Origin: Candidatus Shapirobacteria bacterium
GTDB taxonomy: Bacteria > Patescibacteriota > Microgenomatia > UBA12405
NCBI GenBank assembly: GCA_016188545.1
Contig: JACPHO010000002.1
Span: forward strand, 13-64,012
Direction of reading: 5' to 3'
DNA length: 64,000 bases
The first letter of the stretch is position 1. Every line of letters begins with the position of its first letter. Of this stretch, positions 7,285 through 44,640 are shown one piece after another. The notes beneath the pieces are model-generated. The model was not told the origin of the DNA and did no database searches. It saw only the letters and a program-made list of their open reading frames with translations. Both the position numbers and the translations under genes were made by a program.

Positions 7285-7329
7285 CCTAATTATTGCCAAA
7301 GAGTAGGTTATTTTGTAAAATGTAGACCC

Positions 7330-9063
7330 ATGAAAGTTGTGCGACAGTTCTTACATTTCCTAAAAGACTACAAGCTATCGATGGTCATGTTTATGACGGT
7401 CACTACTTTGTCGGTGCTGGCAGAGTCGATGAGACCATGGTCGCTGAAAATGATCCTCGATAGTGTAGGTGTTAATGATATGAATAGGGTGTACTGGTAC
7501 CTTGGACTTTTGGGGGTATCGACTATCGGGGGAAACATAATTAATTCTCTGGGGTACTTCTACGGTGACGTAGTTAAGATTCCCCTATCAAAACAGATTA
7601 GAGAAGTAGTGTTCAAAAAAGTTCTCGACCTGGATTTTGCTTACCATGTTGATAAAAATACCGGCTCGCTCATTAGCGCATTTCGGCGGGGGGATGGAGC
7701 GGTGAATTCGATATTTGATGCGGTGTTTCAGGAAATTTATTGGACGATTATATACATTGGGGTGGCACTGTGGTTTTTGTTCCAAGCCTCCCCTTCGATT
7801 GGAATGGCACTGGTGGGATTGTTTGCTATCAACATGAGCATGATTTTTTGGCTTATAAAAAAGAATCTAAAGACAAGGGTGGTGTTCAATAAAACAGAAG
7901 ATGAGATTTCGGGGATTATCGCCGATACAATGATCAACTACGACACAGTTAAGTTTTTTGCCGCCGAAAAAAGAGAAGAGAAAAGATTGGCCAACAAGTT
8001 TTCAGAGTGGACGAGAGCAGTATGGGACTATGCCAACACCTTTAGGATGATGGATGTGGGGGTAGGGACGGTATCGGCTAGTGGAATGCTACTGATGCTA
8101 TGGATAGCTGTATCAAAACTCAACAACGGGCTAACTATTGGGGATATTGTGATGATCTCTGGATTTGTGACCAGTTTGCATTTTCAATTCTTCCACTTGT
8201 TTTCACAAATTAGAAATATTGCCAAACATACCGCGGACCTGGAGGCTTATTTTGGAATTCTAGATAACGAAGTGTGTGTCAAGGAAGCCACAAGGCCAAG
8301 AAAAATTAAAAAAATGGCAGGGAAAATTGAATTTCAAAAAGTCGGATTTGTCTATCCAAAAAACAATCAGAAAGTATTGGATGATATTAACTTAGTAATA
8401 AAGTCGGGAACCAAGGTAGCGTTTGTAGGTCGGTCGGGTACCGGGAAAACAACTTTGGTTAAACTGCTTCTACGATTTTACGACCCCAGCAAGGGACGGA
8501 TATTGATCGATGGGGTGGATATTAAAAAAATGACTAAGAGCAACCTGCGGTCGATTATCTCGGTAGTGCCACAAGAACCGGTACTGTTTAATAACTCCAT
8601 CAAATTTAACCTGGCTTACGGCAAGGAAGAAGCCACCATGGAAGAGATATTGACTGTGGCGGAACAGGCCAACATCATTGATTTTATTGACAAGCTCCCC
8701 AAAGGCTGGGATACGATGGTGGGAGAACGGGGAATAAAGCTTAGCGGTGGACAGAAGCAGAGGTTAGCAATTGCCCGAGCCCTACTTACCAACCCTAAAG
8801 TTTTGATCTTTGACGAGGCAACTTCGAACCTCGACTCAGAATCGGAGAGGATGATCCAGACGGCCCTTGAGGAAGTGTCAAAAAGTCGGACAGTAATTAT
8901 TGTGGCGCATAGGTTCTCAACAGTTCGCGATGCAGATAATATTGTGGTACTGGCGGGGGGAACGATAGTCGAAAGTGGGAAGCACCAAGAACTACTGGCC
9001 AAAAAGGGCGTCTACGAAAAGCTGTGGTCGATTCAAACGAAGGGGAAGAGCAAGAAGAAATAA
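7330..9063 (+). CDS. ABC exporter, fused permease/ATPase (MsbA-like)
   Basis: N-terminal 6-TM domain. C-terminal NBD with GRSGTGKTT and LSGGQKQRLAIARAL...IFDEATSNLD. Confidence 0.85.
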   Translation: MKVVRQFLHFLKDYKLSMVMFMTVTTLSVLAESMRPWSLKMILDSVGVNDMNRVYWYLGLLGVSTIGGNIINSLGYFYGDVVKIPLSKQIREVVFKKVLDLDFAYHVDKNTGSLISAFRRGDGAVNSIFDAVFQEIYWTIIYIGVALWFLFQASPSIGMALVGLFAINMSMIFWLIKKNLKTRVVFNKTEDEISGIIADTMINYDTVKFFAAEKREEKRLANKFSEWTRAVWDYANTFRMMDVGVGTVSASGMLLMLWIAVSKLNNGLTIGDIVMISGFVTSLHFQFFHLFSQIRNIAKHTADLEAYFGILDNEVCVKEATRPRKIKKMAGKIEFQKVGFVYPKNNQKVLDDINLVIKSGTKVAFVGRSGTGKTTLVKLLLRFYDPSKGRILIDGVDIKKMTKSNLRSIISVVPQEPVLFNNSIKFNLAYGKEEATMEEILTVAEQANIIDFIDKLPKGWDTMVGERGIKLSGGQKQRLAIARALLTNPKVLIFDEATSNLDSESERMIQTALEEVSKSRTVIIVAHRFSTVRDADNIVVLAGGTIVESGKHQELLAKKGVYEKLWSIQTKGKSKKK

Positions 9064-9098: not shown

Positions 9099-9917
9099 CT
9101 ATGATTTTGATTTTAGATAATTTTTTGGAGATATAACCTTTGTCCCAGATTCTGATTCCAGTTTTACCCTAGCTTGACGAGCGATTTGACCACCTCGATG
9201 ACCAGCGCTGATATTTTCCGGCATTCCAGTGGCGTCAAAAGATTGGGCAATGGTTCGCGTGGAGGCTTCAGCTAAGGCAGTAAAAATTAGTTCTAATTCC
9301 GACATGTGATCACGAAGATTTTGATTTTTTAAGCCTTTAAGTTCTTTATGATTTCTAATGGTCATATCGGACCATTCCTGATGAATAATGTTGGTTAATA
9401 TGGCAAATTCCTGTTCTTTGGTTACCTCATGATTTTTCCAGTAATCGGTCAATTTATTTCGAGTCTCTTGGCCCATCATTCGTTGTTGAATCCATTTGTC
9501 ACTCCGGCCTAACTTTTGCCAGTGACTTCGGGCACGATTAACTGCCTTTTCCGGATCGCCAATTTCTTCGATTCGCTCATAACCGACTTTGGCTAACCAG
9601 CGTTTGAAGGGTTCAGCTTTGGGTGAGGGAATGGATTGGATAATTCTAAATAAACCTTCGATATTGGCACAGTCTGTTTCTCGTTTTTTGCCATCATTAG
9701 CAACTAATTTTAACCGGTGACAATTTGTCACCACTTCACTCCCTTCATCTCTAAGTCTCTGAACCAATTTATTCCAATATTTCCTTGGATCCTCACTATC
9801 TGTCAATACACCAACAACGCCAACTACCGAAAACCACCATTTATCCTTAAACCATATACGGCGAATTTCTTTTTGGTGGAAATTTATTGGTTTTGAGTTA
9901 TTTATTACTTGATTCAT
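9099..9917 (-). CDS. BRO-N (KilA-N-like) domain protein
   Basis: INFHQKEIRRIWFKDKWWFSVVGV...EGLFRII.S..PKAEPFKRWLAKV matches the Bro-N/antirepressor N-domain pattern. The long ORF (to 10139) reads through tRNA-Arg, so it is trimmed to the Met at 9917. Confidence 0.55.
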   Translation of the reverse strand: MNQVINNSKPINFHQKEIRRIWFKDKWWFSVVGVVGVLTDSEDPRKYWNKLVQRLRDEGSEVVTNCHRLKLVANDGKKRETDCANIEGLFRIIQSIPSPKAEPFKRWLAKVGYERIEEIGDPEKAVNRARSHWQKLGRSDKWIQQRMMGQETRNKLTDYWKNHEVTKEQEFAILTNIIHQEWSDMTIRNHKELKGLKNQNLRDHMSELELIFTALAEASTRTIAQSFDATGMPENISAGHRGGQIARQARVKLESESGTKVISPKNYLKSKS

Positions 9918-9985
9918 AGTAAAGAATATACCCGAATAAAACCCAAAGTCAAGATTTATAGTAATTGTGAGGTAAAATTGGACAA

Positions 9986-10057
9986 GTTCCTGTAGTCCAA
10001 TGGATAAGATGATCCCCTCCGAAGGGATTGATCCGGGTTCGACTCCCGGCGGGAACA
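9986..10057 (+). tRNA. tRNA-Arg (anticodon CCG)
   Basis: Acceptor GUUCCUG/CGGGAAC. Anticodon stem AUCCC/GGGAU with loop CUCCGAA. T-arm CCGGG-UUCGACU-CCCGG. Confidence 0.8.
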
Positions 10058-10119
10058 CAGACAAATAAGAAAAGAATTCAGGCACAATATCGTTTGAAGC
10101 TAGTAAGCTATAATAAGAG

Positions 10120-10602
10120 GTGGACCAGGAAACAAACATAACTGATAATTTGTACTACGACGAGCGATCGGCGGGAGGTATCGTGTACAAAAAGGAAGGA
10201 GAAAAAGTATTATTCCTCCTAATCAAAACTTTTGCCAACAAACGAAGGAAGACAGTCTTTAAGTTCCCCAAAGGACATCTGAATAAAGATGAAGTACTAA
10301 AGCAAGCGGCATTACGTGAGGTGGAAGAAGAAGGAAGGATTAAGAGTAAAATAATCACTAAGATAGGCTCAAATGATTATATTATCTGGGACAAATTACA
10401 GAAGAAAAAGATTATCAAGAAAGTGACTTTCTTTTTGATGGAGTATGTCGAGGAAAGCAACCTAAAGTATTTTGACTCGGAAGTGGTCTTGGATCGGATC
10501 TGGGTGAACTACAGCGATGCTCTAGGCAAGCTGGCTTTTGACTCGGAGAAGATACTACTGAAAAAAGCTAAGGTGAGGTTGGACTGGTTGAGTAAGAAAT
10601 AA
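10120..10602 (+). CDS. NUDIX hydrolase
   Basis: Nudix box GHLNKDEVLKQAALREVEEEGRI (Gx5Ex7REUxEExGU). Confidence 0.75.
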   Translation: MDQETNITDNLYYDERSAGGIVYKKEGEKVLFLLIKTFANKRRKTVFKFPKGHLNKDEVLKQAALREVEEEGRIKSKIITKIGSNDYIIWDKLQKKKIIKKVTFFLMEYVEESNLKYFDSEVVLDRIWVNYSDALGKLAFDSEKILLKKAKVRLDWLSKK

Positions 10603-10873: not shown

Positions 10874-11059
10874 ATTTTCAGTTGTTCCCTACAGTTCCAT
10901 GTAATATAGGGAATGCAGCTCTCCAAACCAATAATTCGTTTGTTCCTGTTTAGCTTTTTTACCCGTAGGACGTTTTTTTAGAAATACACGTCTGACTGGT
11001 TAAAATATACCCGTAGGACGTGTATTGACAAATCTACGTCCAACGGGCATAATAGTTTT

Positions 11060-12028
11060 ATGAAGGTATTTTTGTCAAACCAGGGAAACTTAAGAAACTT
11101 TAAGAGTTTTACAGAATCCATAGACTTATCTCATCCAGATAAATTGGAAATAACAACTCACGATAAATGGGTAACAGTTCATCCAGCAAATCTGGTTTTG
11201 GCAGCTGCGTTAGCGATGAAAGTTGGCAAGGATAATACAGAAATTACAGGTAAAGTTCCTGAAACCGGACGATATTTAGACAGAATGGGACTTTATGAGT
11301 TAACTAAGACATCTTCGCCGTTTATATATAGGAAAAAGGAAGAGGCGGGAAGGTTTTTGCCGATTAAAGTGATAAAAGACTCTCAGGGTCAATCTCGTTT
11401 TATTACGGACATGGTACCTCTACTACATCTATCCGAAAAAAATGCCACAGTAGTGAAATATATTATTGGAGAGCTAGTTAGAAATGTTCTTGAACATTCT
11501 TTTGCGGATGATGGGGCAATTGTGGCCGCTCAATACTATAAAAAGACCAACCGGGTGAGTATAGGTATTTGTGACACAGGTATAGGTATCTGGAAGAGTA
11601 TGTGGAAATATTGGAGACCAAAAACTGACATTGATGCAATAAAATTAGCTTTGACTCCGGGAATTACTGGTACTACGCGAAGGGAAGGTGGTACATCCGA
11701 AAATGCAGGGGCTGGATTATTTTTTATAAAATCAATTGCAAAAATATCGCGTAACTATTTTGTAGTTTATAGTGGAAGTGCAGAATATACATTATTAAAA
11801 CATGACAAAAGAGTAAAGAATAAACCCAGGCTTTATGCTGATCCGAACCGAGATCCCCACAGTGAAACAAATACCTCTTCTGATTTTCAAGGTACTTTGG
11901 TAGCAGTAGATATTTCATTGGATGAGACTCCGGAATTTAATGATTTGTTAGCAAGTATTGGCGAGGTATACCACCAAGCAATTCGTGAACGTAAAAAAGA
12001 GAAATATAGAAAGCCAAAGTTTATATGA
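11060..12028 (+). CDS. GHKL-type (histidine-kinase-like) ATPase domain protein
   Basis: N-box ELVRNVLEHS, G1 box DTGIGI and G2 box GAGLFFIKS. There is no HisKA/DHp domain and no TM segment. Confidence 0.6.
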   Translation: MKVFLSNQGNLRNFKSFTESIDLSHPDKLEITTHDKWVTVHPANLVLAAALAMKVGKDNTEITGKVPETGRYLDRMGLYELTKTSSPFIYRKKEEAGRFLPIKVIKDSQGQSRFITDMVPLLHLSEKNATVVKYIIGELVRNVLEHSFADDGAIVAAQYYKKTNRVSIGICDTGIGIWKSMWKYWRPKTDIDAIKLALTPGITGTTRREGGTSENAGAGLFFIKSIAKISRNYFVVYSGSAEYTLLKHDKRVKNKPRLYADPNRDPHSETNTSSDFQGTLVAVDISLDETPEFNDLLASIGEVYHQAIRERKKEKYRKPKFI

Positions 12029-12336
12029 AAAAAATCATTAAAATACTAAAACAAACCGGTGACTTTGCTGAAAACAAAGATGTGGCAAAGGACTTAAGAT
12101 TGAAAAAAATTATGCCGGCTCTATTAAAGAGTAATGGAGTTATTTTGGACTTCAAGGGTGTTAATGGTGCAACACAATCTTTTATTCACGCCTTAATTAG
12201 TGATCCAATTCGTGAATTAAAAGACAGGGCTTTCGATAATCTGTCTTACAAAAACACAAATGATGCTATTCGTGAGATTATTTCCATTGTTTATCGTTAT
12301 ATGCAGGAAAGTTTAGATGGAAATGACGATAAATAA
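12025..12336 (+). CDS. STAS-like (DUF4325-like) small protein, translationally coupled to the GHKL ATPase
   Basis: 103 aa. ILDFKGVNGATQSFIHALI resembles the STAS-like DUF4325 core. Its start overlaps the upstream stop (ATGA). Confidence 0.5.
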   Translation: MKKIIKILKQTGDFAENKDVAKDLRLKKIMPALLKSNGVILDFKGVNGATQSFIHALISDPIRELKDRAFDNLSYKNTNDAIREIISIVYRYMQESLDGNDDK

Positions 12337-12390: not shown

Positions 12391-12437
12391 AATCCTGCAA
12401 AAGTCATCGCAATTAGTTTCGAGAGTATAATGTTGAT

Positions 12438-13289
12438 GTGGAATATAAAATAAGACAGGCAACGAGAGAGGAATTGGACATTGCCGTAGGATGGGCTGCA
12501 AAAGAAGGGTGGAATCCGGGACTTGGAGACGCGGAGGTGTTCTGGAAAACAGATCCAGAAGGATTTGTAGCACTGGAAGTGGATGGAGAGATGGTGGGGA
12601 GCGGATCAATTGTGTCATATGGTGGGAAGTTTGGTTTTATGGGATTTTTTATCGTAAAGCCTGAATTCAGAGGTAAAGGTTGGGGGACAAAATTGTGGCA
12701 CTGGAGGCGAGATAAACTGTTGAGTCGATTGAATAAAGGAGCACCAATAGGAATGGATGGAGTTTTTGCTATGCAACCTTTTTATGCCAAAGGCGGCTTT
12801 GTATTGGCTCACCGAGATATGAGAATGGAGGGGGTGGGTAAAATAATGCAATTTAGCGAAAACGTTAAAGCAATTGAGGTTGATGATTTGGATGAAATAA
12901 GCAGCCTTGATGTCAAGTTTTTCGGGTATGAGAGAAGAACCTTTTTGCAAGGCTGGCTATTGATGAATAACAGCCAGGCTTTGAAATATGTTGATGGTGG
13001 GGAGATTAAAGGATATGGAGTAGTAAGAAAATGCCAAACAGGCTATAAGATTGGACCACTATTTGCTGATAATTATGAGGTAGCTGATGAGCTGTTTAGG
13101 GCTATGTCAACTTTTGCTGATGGTGAGCCGATTTATTTGGATGTCCCAGAGATAAATATTGATGGCATGAAACTGGCTAAAAACTACAATATGAAAGAGT
13201 GCTTTGGGTGTGCGCGGATGTATTACAGTCAAGCCCCGGCGTTACCGTACGACAAGATATTTGGGGTAACATCATTTGAGTTGGGCTAG
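12438..13289 (+). CDS. GNAT family N-acetyltransferase with a C-terminal accessory domain
   Basis: The acetyl-CoA binding region (FFIVKPEFRGKGWGTKLW) matches the GNAT Q/RxxGxG/A motif. Confidence 0.7.
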   Translation: MEYKIRQATREELDIAVGWAAKEGWNPGLGDAEVFWKTDPEGFVALEVDGEMVGSGSIVSYGGKFGFMGFFIVKPEFRGKGWGTKLWHWRRDKLLSRLNKGAPIGMDGVFAMQPFYAKGGFVLAHRDMRMEGVGKIMQFSENVKAIEVDDLDEISSLDVKFFGYERRTFLQGWLLMNNSQALKYVDGGEIKGYGVVRKCQTGYKIGPLFADNYEVADELFRAMSTFADGEPIYLDVPEINIDGMKLAKNYNMKECFGCARMYYSQAPALPYDKIFGVTSFELG

Positions 13290-13338: not shown

Positions 13339-15570
13339 CTATAAATATTTTCCTGTCCACGATCTATCGCATTTTTTAATATCTTGGACTGTCCCCTGTG
13401 CCACTATCTCTCCGCCTTTGTCGCCACCTTCTAGCCCCATATCAATTATCCAATCGGCTTTTTTAATTACCTCTAAATTGTGCTCGATAACAAGTACAGT
13501 ATTGCCACTATCCACCAGTTTGTTTAACAATCTCATTAATTTCTCGACATCGGCAAAATGAAGGCCTGAGGTTGGTTCGTCCAAAATATAAAATTCACCT
13601 TTGTTTTGGAGTCGACTAGCCAACTTTAGTCTCTGACCTTCCCCTCCTGACAAAGTGTCCAGAGTCTGACCAAGTTCCAGATAATCTAGGCCAACATCTA
13701 GAAGCATTTTTAGGCCATCATTTATCGACTTTTGATTAAATAAATCACATGCTTCTATGGCGGTTATATCTAATATTTGGTCAATACTTTTGCTTTCAAA
13801 TTTATAATTCAAGACTTCTGGTTTATACCTTTTGCCATTACATTTATCGCACTTCATTTTGACATCTCCCAAAAAGTTCATATCCATTTCGATGAACCCC
13901 AAACCCTTACACTTGGGGCAACAGCCAGACTTGCTATTGAAACTAAATAGTGATGGGTTAACCTTGTTCTCACGGGCAAACAAATTCCTGACCTCATCAA
14001 ATATTCCCACATACGTAGCAATACATCCCCGCCGATTGTTGCCGATACTATTTTGGCCGACTAAGACTACTTTGTCTTGATGTTGAGCGACAATTTCCTC
14101 GACCAGAGAACTCTTGCCGGCACCTGACACACCAGTCAGGGCCACTAACAATCCTTTTGGGATGTCGACACTTATATTCTTTAAATTATTTCTATTGGTG
14201 GATTCGATTTTTAATAAGCCAGTGGGCTTTCTTGATTGTCTTATTGAGGTTTCTCCATTTGTCTGTCGATTCAAATACTTTGCTGTCAGCGACTTGTCAC
14301 TTTTTAACATTTCATCTTTTGTTCCGGCAAACACTATCTCTCCACCTTTCTGGCCACCACCGGGGCCAACCTCAACAATGTAGTCCGCCGCTCGGATTAC
14401 ACTTTCATCATGTTCGACAACTAAAACGCTATTGCCACTATCTCTCAATCTTTTTAAGTTGCCAACCACAAGTTCTAAATCTCTGGGGTGTAATCCAACT
14501 GTGGGCTCGTCCATGACATAAATCGTCTCTATCAAGTCACAGCCTAATTGTCGGGCTAATTTGACTCGCTGGGCTTCCCCTCCTGACAGAGTGTTGGTTG
14601 AGCGGTTGAGCGACAAATAACCGATACCAGCGTCGACTAAAAACTTTAGTTGTTCTAGTAATCTTGGCTTAATCACAATAGCATTTCGGTGGTCAATGCC
14701 TTTAATAAAATCCAAAGCTTCAGTTATGGGCATATTGGCTACTTGGCCAATATTTTTATTATTTATCAACACGGCTAGCGAATCTTTTTTGAGTCTCCAC
14801 CCCTGACACATCGGACAATCAACATAATTAAAATATTTCATTTCCTCTTCATTAACATGGCGACTAACGCTTGAACCGCGATTATTTAGATGAGTCACTA
14901 TTCCTTGATACATGGGCATGACTACCCCGTCATCATTATTGTTGGCTCTCTGCTTGGGGGCGGACATTAGCTTCTCAAATTCTTCGGGAGTATAGTCTCT
15001 GACCTTTTTATCCATGTCGAAAAAACCGGTCGACTTGATGATCTTCCAATACATCGATTTTACCCGCCAATTACTATACAAAATTGCCCCTTCATTAAGA
15101 CTTTTATTCACATCTATCAGCTTACTGGTATCTATGTCCATGGCTCTACCCAAACCCTTGCACTTGGGACAGGCACCAAGAGGATGGTTGAAAGAATAAT
15201 AGGACGAGTCAAATATCGGCCGACCAGCACGAGAATAGAGAAGACGAAGATAAGTGTAGGTTTCGGTAATGGTACCAACTGTTGACCGCTGGCTTTGATG
15301 CATTCTGTCTTGACTGATAATCACAGTTGATGAGATACCTTTTAAATCTTGCACGTCAGGACGGTTACTTTTTTGAAGATAGCGACGGGCCTGACTACTT
15401 AAACTTTCAAAGTACTGGCGCTGACCCTCGCGGGCAATGACATCAAAAGCAATGGTGGACTTACCACTCCCAGACACGCCAACAAAACAGACAACTTTGT
15501 TGCGTGGTATGGCTAAATCTATATTCTTAAGATTATTCTCTTTGGCGCCTTTGATGACGATGTTATCCAT
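13339..15570 (-). CDS. UvrA-like ABC ATPase (short UvrA paralogue, class II/drug-resistance type)
   Basis: 743 aa with two ABC modules (GVSGSGKST and GVSGAGKSS; signatures LSGGE.QR). Zn-finger CxxC pairs are present. It is shorter than canonical UvrA (~940 aa). Confidence 0.85.
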   Translation of the reverse strand: MDNIVIKGAKENNLKNIDLAIPRNKVVCFVGVSGSGKSTIAFDVIAREGQRQYFESLSSQARRYLQKSNRPDVQDLKGISSTVIISQDRMHQSQRSTVGTITETYTYLRLLYSRAGRPIFDSSYYSFNHPLGACPKCKGLGRAMDIDTSKLIDVNKSLNEGAILYSNWRVKSMYWKIIKSTGFFDMDKKVRDYTPEEFEKLMSAPKQRANNNDDGVVMPMYQGIVTHLNNRGSSVSRHVNEEEMKYFNYVDCPMCQGWRLKKDSLAVLINNKNIGQVANMPITEALDFIKGIDHRNAIVIKPRLLEQLKFLVDAGIGYLSLNRSTNTLSGGEAQRVKLARQLGCDLIETIYVMDEPTVGLHPRDLELVVGNLKRLRDSGNSVLVVEHDESVIRAADYIVEVGPGGGQKGGEIVFAGTKDEMLKSDKSLTAKYLNRQTNGETSIRQSRKPTGLLKIESTNRNNLKNISVDIPKGLLVALTGVSGAGKSSLVEEIVAQHQDKVVLVGQNSIGNNRRGCIATYVGIFDEVRNLFARENKVNPSLFSFNSKSGCCPKCKGLGFIEMDMNFLGDVKMKCDKCNGKRYKPEVLNYKFESKSIDQILDITAIEACDLFNQKSINDGLKMLLDVGLDYLELGQTLDTLSGGEGQRLKLASRLQNKGEFYILDEPTSGLHFADVEKLMRLLNKLVDSGNTVLVIEHNLEVIKKADWIIDMGLEGGDKGGEIVAQGTVQDIKKCDRSWTGKYL

Positions 15571-17758: not shown

Positions 17759-17773
17759 GGTATAATTAGCCAG

Positions 17774-18430
17774 ATGCAAACGGTTAAGTTTGAAATTAAT
17801 CCGGAAAAAGAATACGAATATCACCAGCTTTTTTGTAACACCCGTGGTTTTGAAGGTATGTCCATTTTTTCTTTTACTCCAATCAAAAATAAAACTAAAA
17901 TCACAAAGAAGATTATTGATTTCTGGGATGATGACGATAAAGAACTAACCAAGAAAATTGAAAGCGAATGGAAGTTAATAGAGAAAGGTTGTTTTAAGCT
18001 GTTTGAAGATATTACCGAAACTTCTTGGCTGTATAAAACCTACCATGCCTACTTTTTGGCTTTTAGTCCAATAATTGGTTTTAGTAATCCATTTAATTTA
18101 AGGAGTCAGGAAATAGCATTAACCACTGGGGCAATTATTAACCCCAAGTTTTTAATAGGACATGAGTTATTTCACAGCCACTATTACTACGTGGTCGACA
18201 AAATGAAGATGACGGCGAGATTAAACAGAACTATTTTTACCGAAGGAGTAGCCGCATTGGCATTATTTGAGACAAAAGCCAAGAATTTATTTCCAGAGAC
18301 AGACACAGAAAGTAGTATAAGTTCATATCCGGAAGTACGGGCTAATTGGTCGATATTTTTAGATTATTGGCGCAAAAGACTTAGTTTTGAAGATTTTTTA
18401 ATGAAGATTGCTCAAGATAGTAGGTTCTAA
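17774..18430 (+). CDS. hypothetical protein with an HExxH motif (putative metal-dependent hydrolase)
   Basis: 218 aa carrying IGHELFHSHYYY. The gene is bracketed by perfect 57 bp direct repeats. Confidence 0.4.
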   Translation: MQTVKFEINPEKEYEYHQLFCNTRGFEGMSIFSFTPIKNKTKITKKIIDFWDDDDKELTKKIESEWKLIEKGCFKLFEDITETSWLYKTYHAYFLAFSPIIGFSNPFNLRSQEIALTTGAIINPKFLIGHELFHSHYYYVVDKMKMTARLNRTIFTEGVAALALFETKAKNLFPETDTESSISSYPEVRANWSIFLDYWRKRLSFEDFLMKIAQDSRF

Positions 18431-42432: not shown

Positions 42433-42705
42433 GACTGATTATACTGGAGAGGACGTGTAACAGATATATATTATTAGTCGATTATGATACATTTGTGCGG
42501 AGAATACGGAAATTATTTGATAATAATTTATACATTTTGTCATATTGACTTCGGGTATTATTTGGGTATAAATCAAGTGTGAACATTATTACTCAATGGA
42601 AAACATGGGTGGTGGTAGGAGTGCTGGGGATGGACTGGTTGGTGTGGAAAGATATCGTCGCTACAATCAGTAAAATGGCGGGGAACTGATTGTATAATGA
42701 AGTGA

Positions 42706-44640
42706 ATGAATATTAGAAGGATATTGTTGTCGACTCTTGCAATAGTAAGTTTTTTATACATCGGGACGAAGGATTTGTGGGCGGCTAACAGCAAATCTTT
42801 TAAAATTACCTCGGCAAATATTGAGGCCATACTAGATATTGACGGATCCATGGAAGTAAGAGAATCAAGGCAATATAGCTTCAACGGGAGCTACACATTT
42901 GCTTATCAATATATAAATAAACGAGGTGGGAAGGGAATAGAAAACAGGAGAAGCGAAGACTATGAGTTAGATAACTTTTCACTATGCGAGGCAACAACTT
43001 GTTATCGCGGACTCCAGCAGGAGGAAATTAGAGCGGCAGATGATAACCGACCTGAAGGAACGTTTTATGTAATCGAAGAGGCTGATAGATACTATGTTAA
43101 GTGGTTTTACCGGAGTAATAGTGGGGTAAAGAATTTTGAGCTGAGATATCGGGTCGCCAACGCAATTACTCAACAAAAAGATACTGCAGAACTGTATTGG
43201 AAATTGATTGGAGATGGGTGGGAAGTAGCGACGAGTAATATGAATGCGAAAATAAAACTACCTCTAGCGGTCGATGGAAATAAGATTAAGGCTTGGGCAC
43301 ACGGACCAATAGGTGGAGTGGTGTCGATTCCGACAAACAGCCTAGTAACAGCAGCGGTGAATAGATTGCCTACAAAAACATTTTTTGAGATCCGAGTGTT
43401 GATGCCCAAAGAGACTTTTTATAAAGGAGTTAAAGGGACGATAACCACAGGTGAGATAGAGGCACAAGAAAAAAAATACATTGAGGACACAATTGCTGAT
43501 CAGAAAAGGAAAGAGATGGGAGCGCAAGCAGCGGTAGCTGGAGTGGTACTACTGACACTGTGGGCGGTGGTTAGGTTTGTAAGAAGGTTAGGACAATTTT
43601 TGAAAAATGGTTTGGAACTAAAAATGCCTAGAGTGAATCTGGCGGACAGAATTTGGGAACCGCCAAGCAATATTGACCCGGCACAAGTAGAACAGCTACT
43701 AAAAGCGGAAAAGACACTTACTCCGAAATCATTTACGGCGACGATTTTGTCACTAGTGCAACACAGAGTTTACAGGCTAACCAGAAGTGATCAAAAAATA
43801 GGTTTTTTGATATTTAAGAAATATGAATATTATCTGGAAAAACAGGTAAATGAGAAGTATGTACCATCAGGAATTGAACAAAAAACAATTGAATACCTTG
43901 ATAAAGTAGGGACGGGGAAAATTGGACTTTCTGACGTTGTTAAATACGCCAGAACCAGAAGAACAACCAGTTACAACTTCTTTAAATCCTTTGAAAAAAC
44001 GGCGCTAAGAGAGAATCTCGAAGAAGGTTATTTTGACAAGAAAGCTCATTTTTTGGTCAACAATTATGGTGGTGAGGTCGGCAACGGACTGACTTTGTTT
44101 CTAGTATTCATGGCGATACCGTTTACATCTCCGCTGCTAACAAATTCACCATGGTTTTTGATAGCTGAAATAGCATGTGTACCAATAATGGTGGTGATAA
44201 TGGCAATAAGGGGCTACATGAAGAAGTATGGTGAGAAGAGAACTGAGAAAGGGAGTGAAGAGGCAGCAAAATGGATGGCCTTTGAAAAACATATGAGTGA
44301 CTATCGGCAGACCCAAAAGTACCCGATTGATTCGATTGTCCTCTGGGAAAAATATTTGGTATATGGAACAGTGCTGGGAGTATCGATGAAAACGTTGTCA
44401 CAACTACCAGTAAAATTTAGCGCTGAAGACGCCATTTTGGGAACTACTTATTGGGGAGGGGGGCACTTTTCAGGAACCGATGGAGTTTTTGGAGGTGATT
44501 TTGGTTCTTTTTCACAAGCAATGAACTCAATTGCTTCGACTGCGAGTGCCAGTTATGGGGCCAGTGGAACAGGTTCGTCAGGTGGTGCATCGGGTGGAGG
44601 TGGCGGTGGAGGCGGAGGTGGCGGTGGAGGAGCAGGCTAA
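42706..44640 (+). CDS. DUF2207 family membrane protein with a poly-Gly C-terminus
   Basis: Signal peptide, a large extracytoplasmic domain, TM helices, and a C-terminal GGGGGGGGGGGAG tail typical of DUF2207. Confidence 0.6.
   Translation: MNIRRILLSTLAIVSFLYIGTKDLWAANSKSFKITSANIEAILDIDGSMEVRESRQYSFNGSYTFAYQYINKRGGKGIENRRSEDYELDNFSLCEATTCYRGLQQEEIRAADDNRPEGTFYVIEEADRYYVKWFYRSNSGVKNFELRYRVANAITQQKDTAELYWKLIGDGWEVATSNMNAKIKLPLAVDGNKIKAWAHGPIGGVVSIPTNSLVTAAVNRLPTKTFFEIRVLMPKETFYKGVKGTITTGEIEAQEKKYIEDTIADQKRKEMGAQAAVAGVVLLTLWAVVRFVRRLGQFLKNGLELKMPRVNLADRIWEPPSNIDPAQVEQLLKAEKTLTPKSFTATILSLVQHRVYRLTRSDQKIGFLIFKKYEYYLEKQVNEKYVPSGIEQKTIEYLDKVGTGKIGLSDVVKYARTRRTTSYNFFKSFEKTALRENLEEGYFDKKAHFLVNNYGGEVGNGLTLFLVFMAIPFTSPLLTNSPWFLIAEIACVPIMVVIMAIRGYMKKYGEKRTEKGSEEAAKWMAFEKHMSDYRQTQKYPIDSIVLWEKYLVYGTVLGVSMKTLSQLPVKFSAEDAILGTTYWGGGHFSGTDGVFGGDFGSFSQAMNSIASTASASYGASGTGSSGGASGGGGGGGGGGGGGAG

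What the first reader, a model, noticed from the sequence alone, without database searches (positions are those of the whole stretch)
11060..12336. Translationally coupled GHKL-ATPase + STAS-like (DUF4325-like) pair without a sigma factor, next to tRNA genes
A 322 aa protein with bona fide Bergerat-fold boxes (ELVRNVLEHS, DTGIGI, GAGLFFIKS) but no DHp/HisKA domain is followed, with ATGA overlap, by a 103 aa STAS-like protein. The pairing resembles the SpoIIAB/RsbW kinase with SpoIIAA/RsbV anti-anti-sigma partner-switching logic, yet there is no sigma factor or PP2C phosphatase nearby. The pair lies immediately downstream of tRNA-Ser(GGA) in a tRNA-flanked accessory stretch (with a BRO-N protein, NUDIX hydrolase and hairpin repeats), a typical integration hotspot for defence or accessory cargo. 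It may be a stand-alone signalling or conflict module, for example an NTP-dependent switch or a phage-defence candidate.
Basis: partly seen in the sequence, partly recalled or inferred. Interest (0 to 1): 0.7.

Follow-up and report, generated by a model that had tools for sequence, protein, structure and literature searches.

The report
Self-regulating kinase–STAS switch cassette
This is a real two-gene cassette, very strongly conserved across candidate-phyla-radiation bacteria and also found in a phage contig and in restriction operons; it encodes a SpoIIAB-like protein kinase and its small STAS partner, distant relatives of the CapK/VapK DNA-damage switches described in 2026, but here the kinase itself appears to read a palindrome in its own promoter.

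Summary
A 322-aa GHKL protein (11060-12028) overlaps by ATGA a 103-aa DUF4325/STAS protein (12025-12336), and no sigma factor or PP2C lies nearby. It is not an orphan oddity. The kinase is homologous over both its N-terminal domain and its GHKL domain to the ssDNA-activated kinases VapK and CapK (hhalign 98%; EMBO J 2026, PMC13373217). The small protein's best match in the PDB is VapS. The cassette lacks VapC, the VapS C-tail, CapK's HTH and CapS's wHTH. About 100 loci (mostly CPR, one phage group) keep only these two genes. dN/dS is about 0.03-0.08, with about 80% amino-acid identity despite saturated synonymous sites. A palindrome with 12-nt arms brackets the -35 box in 78 of 83 distinct promoters. 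Its inner 3 bp co-switch with kinase loop residues 249-251 (CGT/DKR, TGC/KKR, TAC/RxD; about 11 independent switches). This implies the kinase is its own sequence-specific repressor. In at least 6 loci hsdR or a DNA methylase is coupled directly downstream. The signal, the phospho-acceptor (Gln sits at the canonical Ser position) and the output are unproven. Verdict: a new variant of a recently described kind. The tRNA-island reading is not supported.

The parts
10962..10973 (+). Operator half-site L1 (CCCGTAGGACGT), upstream tandem unit
   Evidence: Exact copy of the proximal left arm. Direct repeat D4 and inverted repeat I1. Sequence read.
10988..10999 (+). Operator half-site R1 (ACGTCTGACTGG), an imperfect inverted copy of L1. 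It is followed by a weak -10-like TAAAAT at 11001-11006.
   Evidence: Tandem units (3 or more half-sites) occur in 20 of 74 related loci.
11010..11021 (+). Operator half-site L2 (CCCGTAGGACGT), immediately upstream of the -35 box
   Evidence: A conserved proximal palindrome is present in 78 of 83 distinct upstream regions.
11025..11053 (+). Sigma-70-type promoter: TTGACA (11025-11030), 17-nt spacer, CATAAT (11048-11053). The ATG lies 6 nt after the -10 box, which implies a leaderless mRNA.
   Evidence: Best promoter-like site in the region, 11 of 12 matches. The same layout is seen in all CPR loci.
11036..11047 (+). Operator half-site R2 (ACGTCCAACGGG). It is the inverted copy of L2 with 1 mismatch and fills the -35/-10 spacer.
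   Evidence: The position implies repression by promoter occlusion (inference).
11060..12028 (+). Gene A: STAS-like N-terminal domain (about residues 1-120), SpoIIAB-type GHKL Ser/Thr kinase domain, and a C-terminal basic helix (293-316). It is a CapK/VapK homologue.
11471..11497 (+). N-box (E138-L-V-R-N142-V-L-E145-H146), which holds the Mg-ATP ligands
   Evidence: N142 and E145 are invariant. E138, R141 and H146 are at least 90% conserved.
11573..11587 (+). G1 box (D172-T-G174-I-G176)
   Evidence: Invariant in 43 family members
11795..11857 (+). Basic loop at residues 246-266 (KHDKRVKNKPRLYADPNRDPH), an insertion absent from VapK. Residues D249-K250-R251 (11804-11812) co-vary with operator positions 10-12.
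12025..12336 (+). Gene B: a DUF4325 STAS-fold protein and VapS homologue. It lacks the VapS C-terminal inhibitory helix and the CapS wHTH.
12172..12180 (+). Invariant T50-Q51-S52 at the N-terminus of helix alpha-2. Q51 aligns with VapS Ser48. T50 or S52 are the candidate phospho-acceptors.

Best explanation
The locus is an autonomous, autoregulated two-gene switch of the CapK/VapK class.

Gene A encodes a SpoIIAB-type GHKL Ser/Thr protein kinase preceded by a STAS-like sensor domain. Gene B encodes its STAS (DUF4325) partner or substrate.

Shown by comparison:
- A is homologous to VapK and CapK across both domains.
- B is homologous to VapS.
- The ATP-binding residues of A are invariant.
- A and B are always adjacent, are usually translationally coupled, and are sometimes fused.
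- No third gene is conserved.
- The operon has its own promoter, whose -35 box is bracketed by a palindrome with 12-13-nt arms.
- The inner 3 bp of both arms switch together with residues 249-251 of a basic loop in A.

Inferred:
- A dimer of A binds the palindrome, with one loop per arm, and occludes the promoter. DNA would then occupy the place that the sigma factor has in classical partner switching.
- A DNA-derived stress signal (ssDNA, by analogy with CapK/VapK) activates the kinase.
- A phosphorylates or engages B at the T50-Q51-S52 cap of helix alpha-2.
- The A-B interaction changes A's occupancy of the operator and de-represses the operon.

Output: whatever is transcribed from this promoter. 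In at least 6 loci that includes a tightly coupled hsdR or DNA methylase gene. In most loci, including this window, it is only A and B themselves. In those loci the downstream target of A or B, if any, is unlinked and unknown.
For: Homology:
- A-family profile against VapK: hhalign 98.1%, E 7e-14, 242 columns, A 20-288 aligned to VapK 36-292.
- A-family profile against CapK: 97.9%, E 6e-13, A 25-287 aligned to CapK 88-365.
- VapS is itself DUF4325 at 62.7 bits.
- A VapS-free B profile finds VapS (9Z7O) as the best hit in the whole PDB, E 0.002. hhalign gives 82% over 87 columns.

A-B coupling: adjacent in 99 of 99 loci. Fusion proteins exist.

Autonomy: no neighbour family occurs in more than 7 of 89 non-redundant loci. 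Neighbourhoods are housekeeping or otherwise unrelated between loci, R-M operons and a phage structural module.

Operator:
- 78 of 83 distinct upstream regions have at least 9 of 12 complementary positions, against about 5% of shuffles.
- The motif occurs only upstream of A in the 64-kb window.
- A.C and G.T mismatches are equal in number (32 vs 29), which argues for a DNA palindrome and against an RNA hairpin.

Recognition code:
- CGT with D-x-R in 27 of 27 loci, TAC with R-x-D in 19 of 19, TGC with K/R-K-R in 10 of 10.
- About 11 loop-class and 14 operator-class switches on the tree, 56 of 63 concordant, and 0 of 10,000 permutations reach that.
- L027 and L028 are 94.7% identical, yet K249D accompanies a change of every half-site.

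Coupled downstream genes: hsdR or the methylase starts -26 to +5 nt from the B stop codon.

Experimental precedent for ssDNA-activated kinase to STAS phosphorylation to derepression or toxin release: PMC13373217.
Against: - No experiment exists on this clade. Kinase activity, the ssDNA trigger and DNA binding by A are all inferences.
- The residue aligned with the phospho-Ser of VapS (S48) and SpoIIAA (S58) is an invariant Gln (Q51). Phosphorylation would have to use the flanking T50 or S52, or it may not occur at all.
- The aromatic residue equated with VapK F54 (W37) depends on an alignment that is ambiguous by 1-2 residues. CapK W68 does not align with it in sequence.
- No phosphatase is present to reset the switch.
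- The arm centres are about 26 bp apart, which is unusual for a simple dimeric repressor.
- The co-variation shows that the loop and the operator are functionally coupled. It cannot exclude that an A-B complex, or a hairpin or cruciform DNA form, is what is recognised.
- In about 90% of loci nothing is coupled downstream, so a pure 'controller' role leaves most copies without an output.
- dN/dS of 0.03-0.08 is atypical for defence-associated genes.
Confidence: 0.55

Rival explanations
1. Toxin-antitoxin-like or abortive-infection module. The kinase (or the STAS protein) is growth-inhibitory, its partner neutralises it, and the palindrome provides the usual TA-type autoregulation. Phage infection or DNA damage tips the balance and arrests the cell.
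For: - The layout is a two-gene, translationally coupled operon autoregulated by a palindrome in its promoter.
- The cassette sits in unrelated contexts, including a phage moron position, R-M operons and, for distant relatives, defence islands.
- The sister system VapKSC is a bona fide TA-like anti-phage system in which the DUF4325 protein is the antitoxin.
- A Francisella prophage carries a 293-aa protein plus DUF4325 pair next to its repressor and integrase.
Against: - No PIN or other recognisable toxin domain is present.
- B lacks the VapS C-terminal helix that inhibits VapC.
- I know of no GHKL anti-sigma-type kinase that acts as a TA toxin (own knowledge).
- Very strong purifying selection and zero indels across CPR are unlike most TA or defence loci.
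- The PADLOC library reports only a partial hit, to the N-terminus of a DrmA model.
Confidence: 0.2
2. Lineage-wide housekeeping stress regulator of CPR bacteria, for example a DNA-damage or replication-stress switch. It would be inherited mostly vertically, and its targets would be conserved cellular components encoded elsewhere.
For: - About 80% identity between named Shapirobacteria, Moranbacteria, Pacebacteria and Microgenomates copies, with random fourfold-site identity.
- A is more conserved than its flanking orthologues: 79% against 56-60%, and 86% against 73-78%.
- dN/dS is 0.03-0.08.
- Many loci have housekeeping neighbours.
Against: - Identity does not track taxonomy. Moranbacteria copies at 81-82% are as close to the window as Microgenomates copies at 78-80%.
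- There is no conserved synteny.
- Copies occur inside a phage contig and inside R-M operons.
- Operator specificity switches repeatedly. That would break any fixed chromosomal regulon.
- The operator motif is absent from the rest of the 64-kb window.
Confidence: 0.12
3. The promoter inverted repeat acts as a nucleic-acid structure (a DNA cruciform or ssDNA hairpin, or an RNA hairpin in read-through transcripts), or is bound by B or by a host factor. The kinase would not be a DNA-binding protein.
For: - Arms of 12-13 nt stay complementary while their sequence changes, which is classically a signature of base-pairing.
- Tandem units allow alternative pairings.
- In CapKS it is the STAS protein, not the kinase, that binds DNA.
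Against: - A.C and G.T mismatches are equally frequent, so no strand-specific wobble tolerance is seen.
- The right arm lies between the -35 and -10 boxes, upstream of the predicted start of transcription.
- B has no wHTH and is a bare STAS fold.
- The strongest co-variation with arm positions 10-12 maps to three consecutive residues of A. The best B column reaches only about half that value.
- A structure-only model does not predict the 249-251 correspondence.
Confidence: 0.1
4. Ordinary anti-sigma / anti-anti-sigma partner switch whose sigma factor and phosphatase are simply encoded elsewhere in the genome.
For: - The best structural matches are SpoIIAB/RsbW and SpoIIAA/RsbV.
- There are weak NCBIfam hits to SpoIIAB and RsbW.
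- JGI annotates homologues as 'anti-sigma regulatory factor'.
Against: - No sigma factor or PP2C occurs near the pair in the window or in 89 non-redundant loci.
- The cassette occurs in a phage contig and in R-M operons.
- A carries an extra STAS-like N-terminal domain and a DNA-co-varying loop that SpoIIAB lacks.
- Its closest sequence relatives, CapK and VapK, act without sigma factors.
Confidence: 0.03

Closest known systems
VapKSC (VapK STAS-GHKL kinase, VapS DUF4325 STAS antitoxin, VapC PIN toxin), Chambers et al., EMBO J 2026, PMC13373217
   Same: - A has the same two-domain architecture as VapK (STAS-like plus GHKL, about 300 aa, no HTH) and is homologous across both domains.
- B and VapS are both Pfam DUF4325, and VapS is B's best PDB relative.
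- The gene order is kinase then STAS.
- Both are associated with defence loci and with phage.
   Different: - There is no vapC or any third gene.
- B lacks the C-terminal helix (VapS 94-116) that blocks VapC.
- Gln replaces the phospho-Ser48 position.
- A has a 246-266 loop insertion and a C-terminal basic helix that VapK lacks.
- Identity is only 16%.
- The promoter palindrome, and its coupling to the kinase, are not described for VapKSC.
CapK + CapS (controller of adjacent pathways), same paper
   Same: - The kinase is homologous over STAS plus GHKL.
- CapK K237, a predicted ssDNA contact, aligns with K161, next to the family-conserved K162.
- Palindromes overlap the promoter and give autoregulation.
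- Both are often placed next to R-M systems and directly upstream of another gene that they would control.
   Different: - CapK's N-terminal HTH is absent.
- CapS's wHTH is absent, and B shows no detectable similarity to CapS.
- Here the DNA-reading element appears to be in the kinase, not in the STAS protein.
- The half-sites are about 12 bp (CCCGTAG plus variable inner positions), not TTAA.
- Most copies have no adjacent pathway to control.
SpoIIAB/SpoIIAA and RsbW/RsbV partner-switching modules
   Same: - N-box of the form E-x-x-x-N-x-x-x-H, and G1 and G2 boxes.
- It has a single-domain STAS partner.
- The adjacent genes overlap.
   Different: - There is no sigma factor and no PP2C phosphatase.
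- The kinase carries an extra N-terminal STAS-like domain.
- The canonical phospho-Ser position is Gln.
- DNA is proposed to take the place of the sigma factor.
SiaB/SiaC (Pseudomonas aeruginosa), a partner switch with a non-sigma output
   Same: - It is a precedent for outputs other than a sigma factor (own knowledge).
   Different: The Sia system has a dedicated PP2C phosphatase (SiaA) and an enzyme output (the SiaD cyclase) in the same operon. Neither is present here.
C-protein (controller) genes of type II restriction-modification systems, and autoregulated type II toxin-antitoxin operons
   Same: - It is a small mobile unit that binds a palindrome in its own promoter.
- In the R-M-embedded copies it would gate expression of the restriction subunit.
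   Different: - The proteins are unrelated (HTH or RHH repressors rather than a GHKL kinase).
- This is an analogy of circuit logic only.

Membership tests
VapKSC | Kinase with a STAS-like N-terminal domain plus a GHKL domain, homologous to VapK | tested here: met
   hhalign of the A family against VapK gives 98.1%, E 7e-14, across both domains. The model shows a beta-alpha-repeat N-terminal domain plus GHKL. The N-terminal fold was not confirmed by a separate fold search.
VapKSC | DUF4325 STAS protein (VapS) encoded immediately after the kinase | tested here: met
   B is DUF4325 at 36.6 bits and VapS at 62.7 bits. A VapS-free profile finds 9Z7O first in the PDB.
VapKSC | VapS C-terminal helix that reaches the VapC active site | tested here: not met
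   B ends about 10 residues after the conserved YMQES motif and has no equivalent of VapS 94-116.
VapKSC | VapC (PIN) toxin gene in the operon | tested here: not met
   No conserved third gene in 89 non-redundant loci. The window neighbours are a GNAT gene and a tRNA.
VapKSC / CapKS / SpoIIAA | Absolutely conserved Ser/Thr at the start of STAS helix alpha-2 (VapS S48, CapS S54, SpoIIAA S58) | tested here: inconclusive
   HMMER, hhalign and MAFFT all place S48 opposite the invariant Q51. The invariant T50 (N-cap in the model) and S52 flank it.
VapKSC / CapKS | ssDNA-binding groove residues (CapK W68, K237, K239; VapK F54) and activation by ssDNA | tested here: inconclusive
   CapK K237 aligns with K161, next to the family-conserved K162. 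W37 may match VapK F54, but the alignment is ambiguous by 1-2 residues. Activation itself cannot be tested with these tools.
CapK + CapS | CapK N-terminal HTH domain | tested here: not met
   The alignment starts at CapK residue 88. A has no equivalent of residues 1-60.
CapK + CapS | CapS = STAS plus C-terminal wHTH DNA-binding domain | tested here: not met
   B is a 103-aa single STAS fold. hhalign against CapS gives probability 0.15%.
CapK + CapS | Palindromic operator(s) overlapping the promoter, giving autoregulation | tested here: met
   The palindrome brackets the -35 box in 78 of 83 distinct promoters. The half-site sequence and the inferred reader (the kinase) differ from CapS. Binding itself was not tested.
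CapK + CapS | Located directly upstream of an immune operon that it controls | tested here: not met
   In the window nothing is coupled downstream, and the GNAT gene has its own -10 box. In at least 6 other loci, hsdR or a methylase starts within -26 to +5 nt of the B stop codon.
SpoIIAB/RsbW-type anti-sigma partner switch | GHKL Ser/Thr kinase with N, G1 and G2 boxes | tested here: met
   [not shown]
SpoIIAB/RsbW-type anti-sigma partner switch | Cognate sigma factor and PP2C phosphatase in the locus | tested here: not met
   None within about 9 kb in the window. No recurrent neighbour family in 89 loci.
DISARM (DrmA) | DrmA helicase core and partner genes drmB/drmC | tested here: not met
   Only positions 27-248 of a 1750-position PADLOC DrmA model match A. 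No helicase or DUF1998 gene is nearby.
Type II toxin-antitoxin module | One product is toxic and the other neutralises it | not testable with these tools
   The operon layout and autoregulation are compatible. Toxicity needs an experiment.

The most novel reading that the evidence does not exclude
A GHKL protein kinase that is itself a sequence-specific DNA-binding repressor. It would read its operator with an inserted basic loop through a simple, evolvable code (residue 249-251 triplet to base triplet: DKR/CGT, KKR/TGC, RxD/TAC). Promoter DNA would then replace the sigma factor as the partner displaced in a STAS-driven partner switch. This minimal two-gene stress switch would be one of the most conserved accessory modules of CPR/Patescibacteria. 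It would be exchanged between chromosomes, type I R-M operons and CPR phages, and it would gate restriction-subunit expression where it is embedded.
Probability: 0.4. Interest if true: 0.75.

Novelty: new variant of a known kind. Interest (0 to 1): 0.62.

Why it matters
1. It extends the CapK/VapK kinase-STAS signalling class, described only in 2026, to a very large clade dominated by uncultivated bacteria: at least 518 metagenomic relatives and 3,013 protein clusters. It defines a minimal, effector-less form of that class.

2. The operator-loop co-variation gives a concrete, cheaply testable prediction. A SpoIIAB-type kinase would bind duplex DNA sequence-specifically, and single substitutions at residue 249 would re-programme it. 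To my knowledge this would be a new DNA-recognition mode for the GHKL superfamily.

3. CPR bacteria have few recognisable regulators. A module under housekeeping-grade constraint that also occurs in a phage contig and in R-M operons is a good entry point into how these organisms sense DNA stress or infection.

4. The hsdS-[A-B]-hsdR arrangement suggests a controller of type I restriction. That bears on restriction alleviation and on how R-M systems establish themselves in a new host.

Tried and rejected
- Recent horizontal spread as the cause of the roughly 80% identity. Rejected: fourfold-degenerate sites are at random identity, 0.20-0.35.
- A link to the neighbouring UvrA-like gene, which was tempting because CapK induction needs UvrA/B. 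The '7-locus' cluster was generic ABC-ATPase similarity, and only the window has this gene next to the pair.
- An integrated island bounded by the tRNA. There are no att-like repeats. The only strong repeats are the operator units. tRNA adjacency is weak, about 6 of 58 loci.
- An RNA element in the leader or intergenic DNA. Rfam found only the two tRNAs. The mismatch spectrum is symmetric.
- My first profile hit of B to VapS was circular, because the alignment contained VapS. I repeated it with a VapS-free alignment.
- Single-sequence PDB searches for A and B found nothing useful.
- The leaderless start as a special feature of the cassette. It is general in this genome: 15 of 41 long ORFs.
- Annotated phage and plasmid collections gave only remote, uninformative hits.
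- Membership of DISARM on the basis of the PADLOC DrmA hit. Only the N-terminal 220 positions of the model match.
- Structure prediction of an A-B or A-DNA complex was not possible with the tools on offer.
Full report
**1. The observation**

A is 11060-12028 (322 aa). B is 12025-12336 (103 aa). Both are on the + strand and share an ATGA stop/start overlap. tRNA-Ser(GGA) ends 186 nt upstream of A.

Pfam gives A only sub-threshold HATPase_c and HATPase_c_2 hits. B passes the DUF4325 ('STAS-like') threshold. The weak score for A is a matter of divergence, not decay:
- In an alignment of 43 family members down to 29% identity, the Mg-ATP residues N142 and E145 (N-box), D172/G174/G176 (G1) and G217/G219/L220 (G2) are invariant.

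The model of B (pLDDT 92.8) matches STAS domains in the fold search. No sigma factor or PP2C gene lies within about 9 kb. The neighbours are pyruvate kinase, a nitroreductase, two ABC ATPases, a BRO-N protein, NUDIX, GNAT, a UvrA-like ATPase, a MerR/GyrI-like regulator and an MFS transporter.

**2. Distribution and selection**

A has 3,013 relatives in the 90%-clustered protein collection. The best 120 are all 77-92% identical and nearly all are 322 aa. Those with names come from Pacebacteria, Moranbacteria, Gottesmanbacteria and Microgenomates. B has 1,022 relatives. One is 100% identical and comes from a Candidatus Shapirobacteria contig, presumably the host of this window.

Sixteen GTDB species representatives and 80 metagenomic loci (at least 518 relatives found) were fetched. 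In the 99 loci analysed, A is 320-324 aa in 98; the remaining one runs off the end of its contig. B always follows directly, with the 4-nt overlap in 53 loci. Nothing else is shared between the window and the 16 GTDB loci.

The high identity is not recent transfer. Fourfold-degenerate sites between the window and the other loci are 20-35% identical, which is random. dN/dS on unsaturated pairs is about 0.03-0.08. Where two loci share flanking orthologues, A is more conserved than they are: 79% against 56-60%, and 86% against 73-78%.

Identity does not follow taxonomy, and there is no synteny. The picture is therefore an old, mobile, very strongly constrained cassette.

**3. Context**

No neighbour family occurs in more than 7 of 89 non-redundant loci. 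Three kinds of context recur and are informative:
- **Type I R-M operons.** The arrangement is hsdM-hsdS-[A-B]-hsdR in L041, L080 and L088.
- **A DNA methylase.** RadC-[A-B]-N6_N4 methylase is seen in L015, L056 and L058; L054 shares the downstream methylase. In the six loci checked (these three plus the three hsdR loci), the downstream gene starts -26 to +5 nt from the B stop codon. It must therefore be co-transcribed.
- **A phage contig.** Three related IMG/VR contigs carry the pair at 62% identity with its own promoter. In L104 it lies between portal/protease-capsid genes and the tape-measure/tail genes, a classical moron position.

In this window itself there are no att-like repeats and no integrase. 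tRNA adjacency across loci is only a weak trend.

**4. The closest known system**

A full-text search led to Chambers et al., EMBO J 2026 (PMC13373217).
- **CapK/CapS.** CapK (HTH-STAS-GHKL) is activated by ssDNA and phosphorylates Ser54 of CapS (STAS-wHTH). This dissolves the CapS dimer and de-represses adjacent immune operons.
- **VapKSC.** In this related three-gene system, VapK (STAS-GHKL) phosphorylates VapS (STAS plus a C-terminal helix), which releases the PIN toxin VapC.

I extracted the VapK, VapS, CapK and CapS sequences from the paper's source data. The comparisons gave:
- VapS is itself DUF4325.
- The A-family profile matches VapK (98.1%, E 7e-14) and CapK (97.9%, E 6e-13) over about 242 columns. 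These columns cover both the N-terminal domain and the GHKL domain.
- A VapS-free B profile finds VapS (9Z7O) as the top hit in the whole PDB.
- B shows no similarity to CapS.

The window pair is therefore a distant member of this kinase-STAS class (16-22% identity to VapK and CapK in the profile alignments). It fails defining features of both named systems:
- There is no VapC.
- B lacks the VapS C-terminal helix.
- A lacks the CapK HTH.
- B lacks the CapS wHTH.

All three aligners place the phospho-serine of VapS opposite an invariant Gln (Q51). Invariant T50 (the helix N-cap in the model) and S52 flank it. The acceptor is unresolved.

The paper reports only loci that contain all three vap genes. 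It does not mention DUF4325 or CPR, and no later paper does either.

**5. The promoter palindrome**

Upstream of A lies a near-consensus promoter: TTGACA, 17 nt, CATAAT, at 11025-11053. It is the best promoter-like site in the region. The ATG lies 6 nt after the -10 box.

The -35 box is bracketed by an inverted repeat: CCCGTAGGACGT at 11010-11021 and ACGTCCAACGGG at 11036-11047. The right arm fills the -35/-10 spacer. A second, weaker unit lies at 10962-10999.

The same layout is present in essentially every CPR locus:
- 78 of 83 distinct upstream regions have at least 9 of 12 complementary positions, against about 5% of shuffled controls.
- The loop is 14-15 nt.
- The distance from the right arm to the ATG is 12-13 nt.
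- 20 of 74 loci have three or more half-sites.

The outer positions (CCyGTAG) are conserved. Positions 3 and 10-12 vary between loci but almost never mismatch. A.C and G.T mismatches are equally frequent (32 vs 29), which argues against a strand-specific RNA hairpin. The motif occurs nowhere else in the 64-kb window, so it is a cassette-specific, presumably autoregulatory, operator.

**6. What reads the palindrome**

I computed mutual information between the operator positions and every column of the A and B alignments. Three consecutive residues of A stand out for arm positions 10-12: D249, K250 and R251 (normalised MI 0.54-0.62, next best about 0.3). They lie in a basic loop (residues 246-266, KHDKRVKNKPR...) that VapK lacks.

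Among loci in alignment register the correspondence is exact:

| Operator positions 10-12 | Loop residues 249-251 | Loci |
|---|---|---|
| CGT | D-x-R | 27 of 27 |
| TAC | R-x-D | 19 of 19 |
| TGC | K/R-K-R | 10 of 10 |

This is not phylogenetic inertia:
- On a neighbour-joining tree built without the loop, parsimony needs about 11 loop-class switches and 14 operator-class switches. Concordance is 56 of 63, and no permutation out of 10,000 reaches it. Most of the seven exceptions are alignment-register offsets or single-base variants.
- L027 and L028 are 94.7% identical (dS 0.65). Their only charge-reversing difference is K249D, 6 of their 17 differences fall in residues 249-266, and every half-site in both tandem units has changed.

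I infer that the kinase itself binds the operator, one loop per arm. A recombinational explanation, in which promoter and loop are swapped together, would equally imply functional coupling.

**7. Mechanism**

*Shown by comparison:*
- A is an ATP-binding SpoIIAB-type kinase with a CapK/VapK-like sensor domain.
- B is an obligatory STAS partner. A-like proteins fused to DUF4325 also exist.
- The operon has its own promoter and operator, and the operator is coupled to a loop of the kinase.
- In some loci a restriction subunit or a methylase is transcribed from the same promoter.

*Inferred:*
- A2 represses by promoter occlusion.
- A DNA-derived signal (ssDNA, by analogy) activates A. CapK K237 aligns with K161, next to the family-conserved K162, and W37 may match VapK F54.
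- A engages or phosphorylates B at T50 or S52, and this changes operator occupancy. That would be a partner switch in which DNA replaces the sigma factor.

*Unknown:*
- The physiological output in the roughly 90% of loci, including this one, where nothing is coupled downstream.
- How the switch is reset without a phosphatase.
- Why the constraint is so strong.

The main rival is a TA/abortive-infection module. A lineage-wide housekeeping regulator comes next. A structure-only role for the palindrome, and a classical anti-sigma switch, are less likely.

**8. Verdict**

The system belongs to a kind first described in 2026, but it is a clearly distinct variant:
- It has two genes and no effector.
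- The DNA-reading function appears to have moved into the kinase.
- It is dominated by CPR lineages and is under housekeeping-grade constraint.

The operator-loop 'code' is the most novel result and the most directly testable one.

Noticed in passing
whole window, e.g. 12425-12440 (GNAT), 7315-7332, 17760-17776, 42690-42708: A -10-like TAnnnT hexamer lies 5-8 nt before the start codon of 15 of 41 long ORFs, while only 4 have a Shine-Dalgarno-like motif. Leaderless mRNAs therefore seem to be the norm in this (Shapirobacteria-like) genome.
   Followed up: partly
window 9099-10139 (-) and 9986-10058 (+): The mechanically listed 346-aa BRO-N ORF runs across tRNA-Arg(CCG) on the opposite strand. 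The Bro-N domain is at residues 91-184, so the real start is probably downstream of the tRNA. A BRO-N homologue also lies near the pair in L008, and an ORF6N protein lies near the pair in L021.
   Followed up: no
window 13339-15570 (-): A 743-aa UvrA-like double ABC ATPase, shorter than canonical UvrA, with only a weak UvrA_DNA-bind match. It may be a UvrA paralogue. Its adjacency to the pair is not recurrent.
   Followed up: partly
gene A residues 22-246 (window 11123-11797): The N-terminal 220 positions of a 1750-position PADLOC 'DrmA' model match A (E 2e-15). This suggests that some DISARM DrmA helicases carry an N-terminal A-like STAS-GHKL sensor module.
   Followed up: no
P0258, P0347, P0365, P0385 (representative proteins, 400-451 aa): Natural single-chain fusions of an A-like GHKL protein with a C-terminal DUF4325 domain.
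   Followed up: partly
L104:173-2050 (phage contig IMGVR_UViG_3300008474_000007): The portal/Mu-F-like head protein of the phage that carries the pair ends in a CdiA_C toxin-like domain (Pfam 26.6 bits, exactly at threshold).
   Followed up: no
L001 (Moranbacteria contig JAAXWW010000007.1), 509-1063 and 11365-12111: A PycTM (Pycsar effector-like) gene and an AbiEii gene lie within 8 kb of the pair, among housekeeping genes.
   Followed up: no
literature: PMC5499597 and PMC7924643: The 2017 PIN-domain catalogue already noted a VapC group ('PIN.4') that is transcriptionally coupled to DUF4325 genes. That is probably vapSC before it was named. The Francisella prophage KIRK carries a 293-aa hypothetical protein plus a DUF4325 gene next to its repressor and integrase.
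   Followed up: partly
P0083 / P0196 (448-kb contig labelled Candidatus Gracilibacteria): A copy of the pair is reported from a lineage that is usually said to read UGA as glycine. If that label is right, the ATGA (TGA stop) overlap could not terminate gene A there.
   Followed up: no
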